This document shows positions 9,301 to 34,655 of a DNA stretch of 64,000 nt, one piece after another (positions within the stretch are counted from its first letter, which is position 1; each line of letters starts with the position of its first letter). Source of the stretch: Octopus vulgaris (Eukaryota); assembly GCA_951406725.2 (NCBI GenBank), contig OX597820.1, positions 26,660,001-26,724,000 of the forward strand, read 5' to 3'. A model generated the notes under the pieces. That model worked only from the letters and a program-made list of their open reading frames with translations. It did not search any database and was not told where the DNA came from. The translations under genes were made by a program, and so were the position numbers.

Positions 9301-9829
9301 AGTGGTGGACTGTCGGTTAAGTTTGACCTTTAATGACTTGTATATCTATGTGCAGACCTGGTAAAGGTTCTTTTTTGAAGAAGACTGGTATTTGCTCACG
9401 TGCGCAATTTTTTTCTCTGTCCACGCTGCTGGTATTATGTTGGCCAAAGGAAACGGCGTCGACTTAGGTCGATGTTCCTTGGCACTAGTATGACGGAGGT
9501 ATTACTACCGGAAACGCAAAGACCCAGAACAAATACAACCAGGTATCTTGCCTGAGACTCTCACAGTTCCGTTAGTCCATCACCCTGGAATGGCACTTGT
9601 TTTATCGACCTCGAAAAGATGAAAAAGGCAAAGCTGACGCTGATAGGATTTGAACTCAGGGCGTAGAAAGACGAGTCATTCATACTAGCCAAGACTTTAA
9701 CGACTCCGCCAGCCCACCACCTTAAAATAGTACATATACAGACTTAAATAATACTTTCTTCTATAGGTACAAGGCTTGATATTTTGGGATAAGGGACTAA
9801 TCGATTACATCGACCCCAGTACACAAGAA

Positions 9830-10064
9830 ATTGTTGTTAATAAAGAACAGCAGAAACTGTTTTCACCTCAATAGACGTCATTGATTGGTTGAAATTGCCG
9901 AAATGCAAGAAATTTAACAAGAAATAGCTTACAAACTGCAGAATTTTCTCAAGAAAGCCAAGAGAAAAGATGTTTTATGTAACACATTCTACCAGTATAC
10001 AAAGTTTGAAAGTGCTTAGTTACAAAGAAATTTTTAAAATCTGCCGGTCAAAATGAAAAGATCC
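9830..10064 (+). mobile_element. Solo, diverged right arm of the long-TIR MITE family at 11372-12193
   Basis: Colinear with 11960-12193 (GATTGGTTGAAATT, ACATTCTACCAGT, AAGTTTGAAAGTG, ends AAAGATCC). Confidence 0.75.
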
Positions 10065-10551: not shown

Positions 10552-10948
10552 TCTTTATATATAAAAGTGAAGTTGTGTGTCTGTCTCCTACGATTTAGAT
10601 TCCTAACTACTCCCACATTTTGCGGTGCAGTTTAACCAAAACCGGGTATCTTATTGTTGTGATTCATTTCGAGCCCTTCTGTGTATTAGCGCGCGTCTAC
10701 GATGAGTCAACGATTTAAAAAAAAATTACGATCATTTTTTTCCATTTTAATGCATTTTTTCGCTATCATATAAGGGAAGTAACTCTCTAAAAATGTCTAC
10801 GATGAGTCAACGATTTAAAAAAAAAATTACCATCATTTTTTTTCCATTTTAAATGCATTTTTTTGCTATTTTTTGGCTATAACTCTCTAAAAATGCTTAT
10901 ATAGTTATTTCCCTTACAAACCCGAGCAACGCCGGGTGATACTGCTAG
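10552..10948 (+). mobile_element. Non-autonomous Helitron
   Basis: A|TCTTTATATATAAA 5' end; 3' hairpin CCCGAGCAACGCCGGG then CTAG|T; no TSD; internal tandem duplication of about 100 bp (about 10695-10895). Confidence 0.85.
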
Positions 10949-10971
10949 TAAAACATAAAAATATATGTTAC

Positions 10972-11084: not shown

Positions 11085-11371
11085 CTGTGAAGAAGAAGAA
11101 TAACAGAAGGAAAAAACAAATTAACAAAAATTCTCTTAGAAATTAATTTTTAAAAAAGCGAACAAAACAACTTGAACATGTAAAATGAATAAAGTAAATA
11201 ATACACAAAGTAAATAGGTGACATCAAACAAAACTGGCTGGTCTCGTATCTGCTCCATTTTCCCACCCTCGACCTACTCGTCTCTCTACCTATCATTACT
11301 TTTGTTGCATATAACCCCACCGACTCTTCATTAACCATTATCCCCAGTGCTTCCTCTCTTGAACAGCAGCC

Positions 11372-12193
11372 GGATGTTTACCTTTTGACCGACAGATTTA
11401 AAAAAAAATTTTTTGTAACTAAACACTTTCAAACTTCTGACACTGGTAGAATGTGTCATATAAAATATCTTTTACTCTTAGCATTTTTGAGAAAAACTTA
11501 CGTTTACGAAGTTATTTCACTTTAAAGTTCTCGTATTTCGGTAATTTCAACCAATCGATGACGTGTATTTAGCTGAATAAAATTACTGCCATTGTTTGTC
11601 AACAACAACTATCGGCAGTGTATTTTTCGTTTGTCACTGTTATTTATGACAACATTCGTACGTTTGTACTGGTTTTAAGATTTTTAGGGTTAGGGTTAGG
11701 GTGTTAGGGTTAGGGTTTTAGGGTTAGGGTTAGAGTTTTAGGGTTAGTGTTTTAGGGTTAGGGTTAAGGTTTTAGGGTTAGGGTTAAGGTTTTAGGGTTA
11801 GAGTTAGGGTTAGGGTTTTTGGGTTGGGTTAGGGTTAGGGTGTTAGGGTTAGGGTTTTAGGGTTAGGGTTAAGGTTTTAGGGTTAGAGTTAGGGTTAGGG
11901 TTTTAGGGTTAGGGTTGTCATAAATAACAGTGACAAACGAACTATACACCGCCGGAAGTTCTTGTTGACAAACAACGGCAGTAATTTTATTCAGCTGAAT
12001 ACACATCATCGATTGGTTGAAATTACCGAAATACGAGAACTTTAGCGTGAAATAACTTCGTAAATATAAGTTTTTCTCAAAAATGCTGACAGTAAAAGAC
12101 GTTTTATATGACATTCTACCAGTGTTCGAAGTTTGAAAGTGTTCAGTTACAAAAAATTATTTAAAAAATCTGTCGGTCACAAGGTAAAGATCC
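11372..12193. mobile_element. Non-autonomous DNA transposon (MITE) with about 280-bp TIRs, 8-bp TSD and a telomeric-repeat core
   Basis: Left arm 11372-11653 is a diverged reverse complement of 11914-12193; termini GGAT(C/G)TTTACCTT; flanks CAGCAGCC (11364-11371) and CAGAAGCC (12194-12201), 7/8 identical. Confidence 0.88.
11684..11916 (+). repeat. Interstitial telomeric array (TTAGGG)n with variant units
   Basis: TTAGGG interspersed with TTTTAGGG, TTAAGG, TTAGAG and GTGTTAGGG. Confidence 0.95.
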
Positions 12194-12754
12194 CAGAAGC
12201 CCTCTGGGATGTTCTCTCTGTGCTCATGTTTTTTTTTGTTTTTGACAACAAATTAACGTTAACGGCAATGAAGTTCATCAATGTTAGCAGTCATGACCAT
12301 AGATTCGGCAAATGTAAAAGAAGTACATAAAAAAGGGAAAAAACCCTCCAAAACTACTGCTCTGAGAGCTAGGGAAATGTGCGATAAACTACATAAAAGT
12401 CAGGCTGTAGTGGCCAGCTTCATTCTTCTCGTTGGTTACGAGTTCAAATGCTATGAGAGCTGTCTTTTGATTTTTAACCATTTTTTAATCTATGAAACCT
12501 TTGAGCCCTCATGCCCATTTGATGTTTAAGAAAATCCCTAATAGCTTTATAATTAAATATTATAAAGAAATTGTATTTAAAAAATTGGTAAAAAATTTCG
12601 TGCATTGTAGAAGTATCAGCAATTTATTGCACATAAATTTCAACAAAATCTTACAGGGACCTCATCACCACCCAAGTGTCAAATGGATCCTGGTTGAGAA
12701 CCATTGCTCTAGCGAGTGGCGTTGTGAAAACTGGACATGACTTCGACTGCGATA

Positions 12755-18794: not shown

Positions 18795-21700
18795 TTTAAT
18801 AAATAAGCTTAAAGAAATTAGTAACAATTATTTTGAATAAGTAAAAATGAAATTAAATGTTAACTTTAACGAATAAATGGCACTAATTGGCGATCAATCA
18901 ACTCTGTGAATATTTTCTCACAGCAAAATTCAATTGACAGAAGAAAATGACAATTTGATTGGTAATTGAACTTGGAAATTTAGCTAACTGTTTCTTATAT
19001 GAGACAAAAAATGAGCGGTATTTTTCGACTTTTGCGTGACTCACTTGATTTGACACGTACATGCCCATTATTTATTCTTTAATTCTGTTTCACGAAGAAG
19101 GAATATTAGTATCAACATTTCAAATTACTAGTTATTTTTTTTTTTATTAGTAAGGATAATTGAACGATATTTTGGCAAATTCTTCTTATAATTTTTACGA
19201 ATTTTACAGATCAAATTCATCGGTTACATTCTAAACAAAAGCACTATTTGATCGGTCCTGGTACCTTATTCATCCACACGTTTTGCTTCTTTATCGGTCA
19301 ACATCGCATATTGCAGAACCCTATATTCCATTTGAAGTTTTCCTGTTTGCATTCGATTAGAGATTTTCGATAGGATGCCTCGAAAAAGCAAATGCTTCCG
19401 TTTTGCGTTCCTTGCGGGCAACCGAAACAGAAGAACAATGTGTGCGTCGGCGTGCTTGCAATGCTGATTCTACTGCAGTTACCAGACTATCACAAACCGC
19501 TCAACAAGCAGAACTCCGGCGTGCACGCAATGCTGCCTCTACTTTAAATAGCTGTGCTTTAGAGACTGTTGAACAAAGGGCCACAAGATTTGGGGCTGAT
19601 TCTCAACGTAAAATGCGTGTTCATGTCTTTTCGAGGGTTTCTTCTTGTTGCTGGTTTAACAAGGCCTTTCATTACAGCCCCCACGAGGACTACGCGTCAC
19701 ACCCACATATCATCATTGGCAATATGTTTACGGTTTGGGTCCATTGTAATGCAATGAGGTGGCCAGCAGAATCTACCAGTATATGCTGCTCCAATGGAAC
19801 GGTTAGCTTGCCTCATTTACAAGTCGGTGCCGAAACTGTGAAGTCCCTGCTGCTCGGAGACCATCCAGATTCTAAAAACTTTCTTCGGAATATAAGAGCC
19901 AACAATTCTGCTTTCCAAATGACAAGCTTTGGTCATACAACAATAAGAGATGGAAATTATATGTCCTCCTCCAAAGTACAAGGCCAAATTTACTACCAAA
20001 TTGGCTCCCTTATTTCACAAGATAGCGATGAACACAGCTTTCCCCAGATTTACCTTATGGGGAACAGACCTGAGGAAATTGCACGAAGAGCTTCAGTTAC
20101 TACAGGAACAAGACCATCTCTTCTGCAGTCCCTTCAGTATATGCTTCTTACCATAAACCCTTACGTAACCATTTTTAAAACTGCTCTTCAGGGTAGAGAT
20201 ACTGATGATCAGTTTAAGGTTGTCATTGAAGGTGACCGCGTTCCACCAGTGCAGCATCGGGGTTGCTTTAACAAACCCCGAACCGACGATGTTGCGGTGC
20301 TTATAACAAATCTCAATGAGTTTGATTCAAACCGTGATATTATACTTGAATGGCAAGACTCGCGCCTTCAAAAAAAGATGAACTTCATCCTGCATATGAT
20401 GCCCTCCAATATCTATTACTGTTCCCCTATGGTGACGATGGCTACCGCATTGACTTGTCAAAGTTTAATCCGGAAACGTTAATGTATCTTCAACCACGGA
20501 AAACCATTTCACAAATGGAATTTTATGCATTTCGGCTTATGGTTCGCAATAACGGCATCAACATTCTTCCTAGAACACATATGCTCCTCAATCAATACTG
20601 TATAGATGTCTTTGCTAAGGGAGATATTTCTTATTTTATGATTTCTTTCAGAAAATTTCCTTAGCCTGGTCACTAACTAATTACTCCACAAATTTCTTCC
20701 TTTTCCAGATTGACACCGAACGCCTCAAATGGATAAGACAACACCAAAAGGAATTACGTACAGAAGAATATGGCAATCTTCGTGACGAAGTGAACCGAAA
20801 CGATCAGGTTTTTGCTTCGAATATTGGACGTTCTGTCATTCTCCCGACACAACGCTACAAGACTTGCGCTCCAACTCTAAACCGTTCGGAGGCGTCGTAA
20901 TTCTTCTTGCTGGGGACTTTCTTCAAACCTTTCCTATTATCCCAAAAGGCACACCAGCTGATGAATTAAACGCTTGCCTTAAAAATTCTCATCGTTGGCG
21001 CTCTGTCCAGTCGAGAATGTTAACCATAAACATGCGTTCCATTCTCCACCAACAAGATTATGACAATTCCATTGCTTCAAAGTTATTGGATATCGGTAAT
21101 GGGAGCTTACCACTCGACGTAAATGGTTTGGCTGACATAAATACCATCGGTAACAACGTCTCCAGTCCTGAGGAGCTATGCACAACAGTTTACCCCAACC
21201 TCTCTACCAATTACATCAGTCATGAATGGATGTGTGAAAGAGCCATCTTAGCTTCGACAAATGCTACCGTCCAAGTCCTAAACACATGTCTGTTTTGTCA
21301 ACTTCCTACCCAAGAGCGATGCTATGCTTCGGTTGATTCAGTTACTGATTCAACACAAGTAACGTTTTCCTAACAGAGTTTTTAAGCTCAAAAGAACCAT
21401 CGGTATTGCCACCGCATAAACTTAGCCTTAAACTTGGTTGTCCTATTATGCTCTTGAGAAATTTAGAGCCTCCTCGGCTTTGCAACGGCACACTTTTGGC
21501 TGCTAAGCAAATGTTGGATAACGTTCTTGAAGCCACAATTATCACAGGAAAAGACACTGGTGAGTCTGCTTTTATTCCCAGAGTTCCACTTATTTCGGCT
21601 GTGTCTTTGCAATGAAAAGAGTCCAAATCCCCATTTAATTAAGCTTTGCTATGACCATTAACAAAGCCCAAAGTTCTAGAGTTGGAAACTCGGCCAATCT

Positions 21701-32135: not shown

Positions 32136-34655
32136 CTATTTAAAAGCCAGATAAGTGTAACGCCGCCAATGGGGGCATCGAAAAGCCGACTGTAAAAGTC
32201 CGTTTACCATCCGGCCTCTGGCGAACAAAATATGGAAGAGTTCGGAGACACAAAGGTTGCACTTCCTTCTGCCCCTATCAAATGGGAGGGCCACCGACAA
32301 AATTGACCATTCCAGCCTGTAGCTTGAGTTCATATCCTTCAATCGCCATATTAGCTTGCTGAGTCCCGTGGTCTGGCGTTTGTTCATGTCCCGAAAAGTT
32401 GCGTAATGATTGGAGATTCGCAAAGCCAATCTTGACGATGAGGCCCCTACATAAGTGTAGACATCTGAGTCCGTGTAAACCTTGCATTGGTAGACGGCGT
32501 TTCTGATCTTGGAGTTCGCCGACATGAATCTTATTCTGCTAGGATTAGTTTCTGAAATTAGAACTGCGTTCCTGTCACTATATTTGTTACGAGAACTGCA
32601 GCCGCTTACTACTTTATTTTCCACTACGTCACTATTAACTAACGGAATAACCCCTGATTCTCCACTATCTATCAGAGTGCTGTCATTGCTAGTGCCCGTG
32701 GTGCTGCTATTGCGGGAAATGATGCTGGGGTTGCTATTGGGGCTCTCTACCCTACTCCCATTGTTACCGTCAACCACAACACCCCTATTTATAACTATAT
32801 CCCTAGTGTGTACTCCCTGGCTGGAGCTGAGATTATGTGTCACTGTACTGGCTCTCATATCATTATTACTACTATAATTATTCCTACTGAGCATTAAACC
32901 GGGAGCGGAAGAGGCTGTGCCTCCGGAAAAAGGTGATAGGGTCTTAGTAAGTAGCCTATTATTATGGGAGGCGATTATCTGGGCGAGGTTTTTAGTGTTG
33001 GAGAAAGCTATCCTAACTTTATGCGAGTTAACCGTGGAGTAATATTTGGAATTTCTGGAGAAGTTATTGGCGATGGCTTGTCTAAACATGAGGGGGAGGT
33101 TAGTTCTAATCTGCTTACCAAAGGGAATTACAAACCATATATGCTTATTCCTATCTGTGTGATGGGTCGGGACGCCAGCTCTCGCATTCGGGTGGGTGAT
33201 TCTCGGATGAATAACGGGTTTTGGGTTAGTGTGAGATCTCCCGGACCGATAATTATCCTAGTTCGCTAAATTAAATGCGGGAGCGACTGCCCCAGCACCC
33301 GCCGCGCTCCCGTCCCTACTTAAATTGTTTATGTTATTATAGACGGCCCTATCCTGATGACCGAATGATGGCATCGGAAGGGCCGGATCAATATAAATTA
33401 CCTTCTGCCTATAACCGGCCTTGGATAGTGCGGCGTTATAAAATTCCGCTTTCTGCATAAAAATATCGGCACTGGCGGACAAGCCAGACAATCTTAGAGA
33501 GATGTTTTTAACCAAATTGTCTGTTACGGTTTTGGCATGATTTGAGAAGACACTGACATACTTCAAATTAGTGGAAGGCTTATGGTAAGGGCAGTATGAG
33601 TCGCTATTAAGGTTAAGTGTAACGTCTAGGAAATTAGCCTTGGTGAGTTCATTATCAAAAACTATACTCATGCCATTCTATTAAAAAACCTAGCTAACCT
33701 GCTCTTAGTTTTCTGCACTATTCTGTTCGTGGTGTTTTGCAGGTAAAACAGACAATCGTCACGATACAGGCCGCCCGCGATCTCCGGGAATTGGTCGGAC
33801 AATTCGTAGAGAATATATATTCCGACCAAATCGGCTATCTGCGCACTATCCGAACTACCCATAGGCACATCAAATTCATTGGGAGTATCTTTACGGATCC
33901 ACAACTTATTATCAAACTTAATAAACGATTTCCTGGCAACTAAAATGATATCTATCTCTTCTCTGGTGAGGCCAGCCTTGTTGTGAGCATGCCAAAGGGC
34001 TTATTTAGCACACTAGGGTTAATCGAGGGGTAGAAGCTGGCGATATCAAACTGAATGAACCTAGTACGGTTCTTATTGGGGATGGAAGAGAACCACTTCA
34101 CTACCTGCGAGGAGTTGGCCCAGAGGCTGAGCTTCAGCTTGTTTACTAAACTAGGGATATATTTATCTAAAATGTACTTACTGATTATCCCGATATCAGA
34201 GCTAGCAGGGCATATGAGTCTTAGCGCTGGGTTGGTGTGGAAGTTCGGTTTATGGTCCTTCACTATAAATCTGGGTTGCTTAGGGCTAAGCGGCTGAGTT
34301 CTCATTTGAATTCGGTGTTTAAATATTATTTCCTTAATTTCCAAGTTTACCTCCCTCAGGGTACTCCAATTGGTTTTTCTATAATTTTTCTTGATCTCTT
34401 TACCGAGTAAATCTAGGTACTGCTTAATGGGTAGCTTGTATGTGTTCCTGGTCTTGTCGGACTGGACCAGGACTCCGTCCGTTCTATTAATGTCCTTGGT
34501 AATTTTATCTAGGTATCTGAGGTGGGCATTTCTCCTGGGTGACTTCCTGAACTTAATCTTTCTAACTATGTCCCACAAGTCGTCCTCAAACTTCTTCAGT
34601 CTTGGGTTAGGCGGCCGTATTCGGACGATGCTGTTGTCCGGTTCGATTTTAGATC
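32136..34655 (-). pseudogene. Naiad-type PLE reverse transcriptase / GIY-YIG endonuclease ORF (2 frameshifts, 1 TAG)
   Basis: FEDDLWDIVRKIKFR, QSDKTRNTY, KDHKPNF..NPALRLI, FDIASFYPSI, FDVPMGSSDSAQIADLVG, GLYRDD, NFLDVTLNL, HIWFVIPF, AVYQCKV..YVG..RISNH, KCNLCVSE..CPH. Frameshifts near 34000 and 33672; TAG at 33258-33260. Confidence 0.92.

What the first reader, a model, noticed from the sequence alone, without database searches (positions are those of the whole stretch)
11364..12201. Long-TIR transposon carrying a telomeric (TTAGGG)n array as its entire cargo
Seen: inverted arms of about 280 bp with GGAT termini and an 8-bp near-perfect TSD enclose only about 30 bp of spacer plus about 230 bp of TTAGGG and variant units, which run directly into the right arm. 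A diverged solo arm at 9830-10064 shows this is a family. Established: GG termini with 8-9 bp TSDs fit Merlin-type transposons (8 bp also fits hAT). Inference: a DNA transposon that disperses interstitial telomeric sequence. It could recruit telomere-binding proteins or form G-quadruplexes in a hairpin loop, or it could have arisen by telomerase-templated repair of an internal break.
Basis: partly seen in the sequence, partly recalled or inferred. Interest (0 to 1): 0.7.

Follow-up and report, generated by a model that had tools for sequence, protein, structure and literature searches.

The report
Merlin mini-transposons scatter telomere repeats
This is one of roughly 1,500 (estimated) copies of a gene-less Merlin-type jumping element whose short core holds telomere-like TTAGGG repeats that likely grew by slippage; it and its sister families sit around most short internal telomere-repeat runs on this animal's largest chromosome, and no function for the repeats is shown.

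Summary
Real and explained. Window 11372-12193 is an 822-bp non-autonomous Merlin DNA transposon with 280-bp inverted arms (90% alike) and an 8-bp target duplication. A related species has the empty site with one copy of the 8-mer (two studies). The same arms lie 5' of broken Merlin (PF12762) transposase genes elsewhere in the genome, and the 30-bp 'spacer' is a relic of one such element's 5' interior. The core is a family trait: 27 of 28 other top arm hits carry it. Each array examined differs (core 36-320 bp). Arrays are built from a TTTTAAGG-TTTTAGGG-TTAGGG seed and never exceed four pure units, which fits slippage, not telomerase repair of this copy. On contig C1, 53 of 61 internal (TTAGGG)4 sites lie beside an inward-facing arm of this transposon group (control 2.1%); 9 belong to this family. 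A sister family with the same ends moves without TTAGGG, so the repeat is cargo. On an arm tree the repeat needs at least three gains or losses; how the first seed arose (mutation or telomerase) is open. Tandem repeats inside Merlins are known; my searches found no paper on telomeric ones. New variant, moderate interest.

The parts
11364..11371 (+). Left target-site duplication CAGCAGCC (the original target 8-mer)
   Evidence: the empty allele in organism C joins 11367 to 12198 and leaves one copy
11372..11651 (+). Left terminal inverted repeat, 280 bp, family A (terminus GGATG, family GGATC)
11652..11682 (+). Spacer: remnant of the 5' interior of a transposase-bearing Merlin element
   Evidence: family spacer (copy L172) against L149: 26 of 31 identical, 0 of 300 shuffles as good
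11675..11914 (+). Degenerate TTAGGG/TTTTAGGG array, about 40 units, with an internal repeat at 139-bp spacing; four G-quadruplex consensus motifs (predicted only)
11916..12193 (-). Right terminal inverted repeat, 278 bp, ending GATCC
12194..12201 (+). Right target-site duplication CAGAAGCC (one substitution since insertion)
9826..10064 (-). Truncated solo arm of sister subfamily B (GGATCTTTTC terminus at 10064); a separate insertion, with no partner arm in the window

Best explanation
A non-autonomous Merlin-superfamily DNA transposon (family A, estimated about 1,500 copies) that was likely moved by cut-and-paste by a Merlin transposase supplied in trans, and whose TTAGGG-like core is passive cargo that likely lengthened by slippage. 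Step 1 (shown): insertion here duplicated an 8-bp target. Step 2 (structure shown, history inferred): the family is an internal-deletion derivative of a GGATC-ended Merlin; it keeps both arms and 30 bp of the 5' interior and has lost the transposase. Step 3 (inferred): the founder held a short seed, TTTTAAGG-TTTTAGGG-TTAGGG, at the deletion junction. My odds for its origin: point mutation of the T/G-rich interior about 50%, telomerase in a founder about 30%, transfer from a sister family about 20%. Step 4 (pattern shown, mechanism inferred): slippage and short duplications then gave each copy its own array. Step 5 (shown for C1): this transposon group lies around most short internal TTAGGG runs. 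The family is likely inactive now: copies are about 4% from the majority sequence, and no intact partner was seen.
For: Empty orthologous site: in two runs of organism C from two studies, one contig each joins 11367 to 12198, skipping 830 = 822 + 8 bases (records 10 and 24). TSD: 8-bp duplication with at most 1 mismatch in 22 of 32 two-arm copies, 16 perfect; no other length from 4 to 11 exceeds 4 of 32. The same holds for 12 of 14 two-ended elements in a terminus-anchored sample. Partner: among the 30 best DNA relatives of a PF12762 transposase, arm sequence lies 5' of the gene, facing it, in 11 distinct elements (L142, 143, 144, 145, 149, 150, 151, 153, 156, 158/163, 162) and 3' of it in L135 and L142. 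Family-A arms are sister to L149/L153 at 97/96. Spacer homology. Core inherited: 27 of 28 other top arm hits, and 12 of 12 terminus-anchored elements that keep the inner arm end. Slippage: 79 of 437 units are TTTTAGGG, and the longest pure run is 2 in 20 of 32 copies and never above 4. A 577-bp arm-free tract has 85 of 98 TTAGGG and no TTTTAGGG. Cargo: 10 of 24 two-ended GGATC elements in the first 27.4 Mb of C1 lack tandem TTAGGG, and 7 of these form one repeated family.
Against: No complete transposase-bearing element with family-A ends and a TSD was found; the nearest arms are 83-84% identical. Growth after insertion is only weakly shown: core length correlates with divergence overall (rho 0.57, p 0.0007, n 32), but not within the pattern-selected subset (rho 0.12, p 0.73, n 11) and only borderline in the arm-selected subset (rho 0.48, p 0.053, n 17). 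Shrinkage from a longer founder array is therefore not excluded. The same 14-mer seed occurs in families whose arms are about 25% apart, and the arm tree needs at least 3 changes; pure chance mutation explains this poorly. 10 of 32 copies failed the 8-bp test as scored (some look offset by one base).
Confidence: 0.85

Rival explanations
1. Telomerase seeded the founders: breaks inside Merlin elements were healed with a few TTAGGG units and rejoined, more than once. Transposition and slippage did the rest. This changes step 3 only.
For: In family A the repeats begin where homology to the parent's 5' interior ends. None of 8 transposase 5' interiors examined holds TTAGGG. TTAGGG-bearing arms are not one clade: at least 3 changes, p-AU 1.7e-08. 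Four C1 sites without arms (L069, L075, L076, L242) are short pure runs set in other sequence, the pattern expected of telomerase insertion (expectation recalled).
Against: Four of those 8 interiors already contain TTTTAGG, within CTTTTAGGTTTA, one change from the seed. The seed begins TTTTAAGG-TTTTAGGG, not pure TTAGGG. A and C spacers are weakly alike (21 of 1000 shuffles), so one origin plus exchange of interiors is possible. The transposase copies are partial, so their 'no TTAGGG' label is provisional, and the grouping was named after a first tree had been seen.
Confidence: 0.3
2. The repeat is kept because it helps the element: it binds telomere proteins or folds into a G-quadruplex in the hairpin loop and so raises transposition or survival.
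For: The seed persists in families A, B, C, D and F. A motif of the B/C/F group has 8,329 exact matches, and 30 of 30 sampled have TTAGGG upstream. The minimal core holds two YTAGGGTTR sites (motif recalled); this copy has 20, plus four G4 motifs.
Against: A repeated family with the same ends and TSDs has no TTAGGG. Only 17 of 32 family-A cores reach a G4 motif. There are no binding or activity data.
Confidence: 0.1
3. One-off telomerase insertion into this single copy after it landed.
For: This copy's core (264 bp) is among the longest sampled.
Against: 27 of 28 other copies share the spacer-plus-array core; there are 402 exact array/right-arm junctions genome-wide, control 0.
Confidence: 0.01
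4. The element is hAT-, P- or MULE-derived rather than Merlin.
For: An 8-bp TSD alone also fits hAT and P (recalled).
Against: The arms flank DDE_Tnp_IS1595 transposases in 11 distinct elements, and the spacer derives from one of them. Other superfamilies' transposases were not searched.
Confidence: 0.03

Closest known systems
Merlin superfamily (IS1016/IS1595-related) and its non-autonomous derivatives; PMC8101967 (passages and part 1 of 2 of the S1 table read)
   Same: TIR within the 24-462 bp range, GG termini, 8-bp TSD, DDE_Tnp_IS1595 partner. The paper reports tandem repeats inside Merlin families, proposes that Merlins spread them, and counts 191 Merlin sequences in an octopus.
   Different: 'telomer' occurs 0 times in its main text. 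Its table gives repeat periods, not units; one 6-bp-period array in an Aplysia Merlin is of unknown unit. Here the cargo is telomere-like and lies at most short internal TTAGGG sites on a chromosome.
Telomere-bearing elements (TBE) of Oxytricha; PMC4724952 (passages read)
   Same: Cut-and-paste transposons that carry the host telomere repeat.
   Different: TBEs are autonomous Tc1/mariner elements with an ANT target and a short fixed repeat at the TIR tips. Here the repeat is internal, variable and degenerate, in a gene-less Merlin.
MITEs and Helentrons carrying satellites: Xstir in Xenopus and (GTCY)n MITEs (titles and table rows in PMC6947457); oyster Helentrons (PMC7492417, search listing only)
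   Same: A mobile element disperses a seed repeat that expands within it.
   Different: Those repeats are not listed as telomeric, and the oyster carriers are rolling-circle elements.
Short interstitial telomeric sequences inserted by telomerase at breaks (recalled)
   Same: Short internal TTAGGG runs; 4 of 61 C1 sites look like this class.
   Different: Those are pure runs in unrelated sequence; this array is degenerate, inherited family-wide and TIR-flanked.

Membership tests
Merlin superfamily | TIRs of 24-462 bp | tested here: met
   280/278 bp; range from PMC8101967
Merlin superfamily | 5'-GG termini | tested here: met
   GGATG...GATCC here, GGATC in the family
Merlin superfamily | 8- or 9-bp TSD | tested here: met
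   22 of 32 copies; empty site retains one 8-mer
Merlin superfamily | Related TIRs flank a DDE_Tnp_IS1595 transposase | tested here: met
   PF12762 at E 5.7e-09; arms 5' of the gene in 11 distinct elements among 30 loci; motifs VEIDET, IFSDL, HTQQIE in L135 and L143
Merlin superfamily | Intact autonomous partner with family-A ends and a TSD | tested here: inconclusive
   only partial copies seen, arms at most 84% identical to A; search limited to the 40 best of 518 candidates
MITE / non-autonomous TIR element | Short, non-coding, high copy number, dispersed | tested here: met
   592-883 bp; 848 exact core matches, control 27; estimate about 1,500
TBE (telomere-bearing elements) | Telomere repeat at TIR tips, Tc1/mariner transposase, ANT target | tested here: not met
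   repeat is internal, TSD is 8 bp, partner is PF12762
Telomerase-inserted short ITS | Pure TTAGGG run unique to one site | tested here: not met
   17 of 40 units pure; core shared family-wide
Functional telomere-protein binding site | Shelterin binding or G4 folding in vivo | not testable with these tools
   motifs only
Named Dfam/Repbase family | Match to a deposited consensus | not testable with these tools
   neither library is available

The most novel reading that the evidence does not exclude
Merlin elements in this lineage repeatedly picked up telomere repeats because telomerase healed transposase-made internal breaks. The healed founders were then amplified to more than ten thousand copies, so that a DNA transposon, not direct break repair, made most short interstitial telomeric sites of the genome and seeded shelterin-binding sites along the chromosomes.
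Probability: 0.2. Interest if true: 0.7.

Novelty: new variant of a known kind. Interest (0 to 1): 0.45.

Why it matters
Short internal telomere-repeat runs are usually read as scars of fusions or of telomerase repair (recalled). On the largest contig here, 53 of 61 sit in one Merlin transposon group, so in this animal they mostly mark transposon insertions. That matters for anyone counting them as fusion or break records, or picking chromosome ends by TTAGGG. About 1,500 copies with one seed, and shared or empty orthologous sites, also make a natural test of how telomere-like repeats grow away from chromosome ends, and of whether they bind shelterin.

Tried and rejected
(1) The best-scoring Merlin transposases are not the partner. 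Of the top 30 PF12762 loci, those with clear TIRs end in GGCAC, and none was enclosed by family-A arms. Of 19 further transposase regions only L135 led on. (2) L018, an arm followed by other sequence, had no partner arm in 9.9 kb. (3) Six terminus hits with a 66-bp arm share one flank; they are one end amplified inside another repeat, not a subfamily. (4) Raw reads X21: only 2 reads were laid (3% of the run read), uninformative. The array itself was skipped as repeat in all runs, so array length in other species was not seen. For organisms A, B and E the contigs run 25-30 bases into the element, under the tool's 31-base bar; only X18 (44 bases) bridges. (5) Five contig ends (2 kb each) had no TTAGGG tract. 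(TTAGGG)12 has 4,324 matches, with a multi-kb tract 210 kb from the start of C5. That TTAGGG is this animal's telomere repeat is thus likely (recalled for molluscs), not shown. (6) Age against array length: not significant within subsets. (7) Literature: searches found no paper describing a TTAGGG-carrying Merlin or MITE (search 26: 0 papers). Most subscription papers, Dfam, Repbase and bioRxiv supplements were not visible, so absence from print is not shown. (8) Earlier-findings look-ups by sequence and by words were empty.

Full report
1. Observation. The element is as described, with small corrections. The arms 11372-11651 and 11916-12193 are 90% complementary. The flanks CAGCAGCC and CAGAAGCC match 7 of 8. 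The core is about 30 bp of spacer and about 240 bp of TTAGGG-like units, the only tandem TTAGGG in the window. The array is degenerate: 17 of 40 units TTAGGG, 8 TTTTAGGG, with an internal repeat at 139-bp spacing. The solo arm at 9826-10064 is 78% identical and belongs to a sister subfamily.

2. It is a dispersed family with an inherited core. The window lies at G000:C7:26660001-26724000 in a 2.8-Gb genome. The animal is likely an octopus; this is my inference from size and repeat landscape, echoed by earlier AI notes, and was not determined. The arm search scored 40 of 2,816 candidates. Of the 28 other distinct elements among the 30 loci fetched, 27 have the same spacer followed by TTTTAGGG/TTAGGG units. 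An exact 19-mer terminus has 1,127 matches. Its first 30 matches are 27 elements: 13 carry the core (all 12 that keep the inner arm end, plus one), 8 are truncated or internally deleted, and 6 are one end amplified inside another repeat. Exact counts are 848 for the spacer 15-mer (control 27) and 402 for the array/right-arm junction (control 0). A capture-recapture estimate from the C1 lists gives about 1,500 copies, and 25 paired sites give arrays of 14-248 bp, median 96.

3. It inserted by cut-and-paste with an 8-bp duplication. Among 32 two-arm copies pooled from several searches (some selected by TTAGGG patterns), 22 have an 8-bp TSD with at most one mismatch and 16 are perfect. In organism C, contigs from two studies (X11 record 10, X9 record 24) run from 11367 straight to 12198. 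They omit 830 bases, the 822-bp element plus one 8-mer. A contig of organism D bridges the right junction with 44 bases in the element. Those of A, B and E reach 25-30 bases in, consistent with a filled site but below the tool's bar. The insertion thus likely postdates the split from C.

4. The partner is Merlin. The genome has at least 150 PF12762 matches. The best ones with clear TIRs have other ends. L135 has an arm facing a broken transposase (Pfam E 5.7e-09). Among the 30 best DNA relatives of that gene, 11 distinct elements have arm sequence 5' of the gene and facing it, and L142 has arms on both sides. On a tree of 36 arms, family A is sister to the arms of L149 and L153 (97/96). The family spacer matches L149's 5' interior at 26 of 31 bases, 0 of 300 shuffles. 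So family A is a deletion derivative of a GGATC-ended Merlin. No complete element with family-A ends was found. TIR length, GG ends and TSD fit the definition quoted in PMC8101967 (passages).

5. How the array grew. The shortest cores are TTTTAAGG-TTTTAGGG-TTAGGG. Each longer array is a different string of these units and their variants: of 437 units, 142 are TTAGGG, 79 TTTTAGGG and 23 TTAAGG. The longest pure run is 2 in 20 of 32 copies and never above 4. An arm-free 577-bp tract on C2 has 85 of 98 pure units and no TTTTAGGG. Telomerase would add pure units (established knowledge), so slippage on the seed is the better reading. The direction is less sure: length rises with divergence overall (rho 0.57) but not within subsets.

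6. Share of interstitial repeats. (TTAGGG)4 has 13,740 matches genome-wide, control 0. All those listed for C1 reduce to 61 distinct sites. Of these, 53 have an inward-facing arm within 500 bp, against 2.1% of 336,259 control bases. Nine are family A and 44 belong to sister families. Of the 8 others, 4 share one further repeat context (one of them inside a long B-type element) and 4 are short pure runs in other sequence. The sister group is larger: 8,329 matches to its motif, 30 of 30 sampled with TTAGGG upstream, and 27,309 GGATC-type termini in all (control 8). Only C1 was surveyed. The 4-unit criterion misses most copies, including this one.

7. Cargo, not requirement. Of 25 two-ended pairings in the first 27.4 Mb of C1, I dropped one nested mis-pairing. 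Of the remaining 24, 14 have tandem TTAGGG and 10 do not. Seven of the 10 form one repeated family (G), four of them with a TSD of at most one mismatch. None of 8 transposase 5' interiors holds TTAGGG.

8. The open point is the seed's origin. On a 33-row arm tree the TTAGGG label needs at least 3 changes, and one clade is rejected (p-AU 1.7e-08). The caveats are that the transposase copies are partial, that arms may recombine, and that the grouping followed a first tree. Four interiors contain CTTTTAGGTTTA, one change from the seed, which favours local mutation. The position of the repeats at the deletion junction leaves telomerase founding possible. A and C spacers are weakly similar (21 of 1000 shuffles).

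9. Known and new. PMC8101967 already reports tandem repeats in Merlins and proposes that they spread them; it does not mention telomeres in the main text. TBEs carry telomere repeats at their tips but are Tc1/mariner elements (PMC4724952, passages). Six searches found no paper on this combination; Dfam, Repbase and most subscription papers could not be seen. Three unreviewed notes of this scan reach a similar reading. They are not independent evidence; the transposase link, spacer origin, empty site and chromosome census rest on my own calls.

10. Verdict. A real, well-explained non-autonomous Merlin carrying telomere-like cargo: a new variant of a known kind. Confidence 0.85, interest 0.45. 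The boldest reading not excluded, repeated telomerase founding, has probability about 0.2.

Noticed in passing
L331, L335, L336, L338, L344, L345, L350 (G000:C1): A repeated GGATC-ended family of 0.5-1.6 kb without TTAGGG. It carries (CA)n-rich DNA, and the longer copies include a stretch resembling the short interspersed repeat seen around window 9591-9826.
   Followed up: partly
L234, L239, L243, L245 (G000:C1): Palindromic sister elements with a TTAGGG run in each half, G-strands pointing towards the element ends.
   Followed up: partly
L069, L075, L076, L242 (G000:C1): Short pure TTAGGG runs (4-10 units) set in unrelated sequence without arms; candidates for true telomerase insertions. L075 and L242 lie in copies of the same repeat.
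   Followed up: no
L072, L084, L235, L244 (G000:C1): A further repeat context with its own degenerate TTAGGG array; in L084 it lies inside a long B-type element.
   Followed up: partly
L271 (G000:C2, about 47.83 Mb); G000:C5, from about 210 kb: Long near-pure TTAGGG tracts inside contigs, the C2 one without arms; possibly fusion scars or assembly joins.
   Followed up: partly
L042, L045, L048, L057, L059: A second Merlin family with GGCAC termini, an 8-bp TSD in L048 and L059, and long open transposase frames; L057 has 820-bp arms that are 100% identical, suggesting recent activity or an assembly artefact.
   Followed up: no
L179, L181, L187, L188, L192, L197: One 66-bp family-A end with an identical flank amplified at least six times on C1 as part of a larger composite.
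   Followed up: partly
window 20786-21373: PIF1-like helicase fragment (PF05970, E 2e-18), likely a Helitron remnant.
   Followed up: no
window 10695-10950: Two-copy 100-bp repeat followed by a very high-copy short motif, Helitron-like by recall only.
   Followed up: no
window 19361-20482 (+) and 32136-33257 (-): Two open frames of 373 codons each on opposite strands, with no Pfam match; not compared with each other.
   Followed up: no
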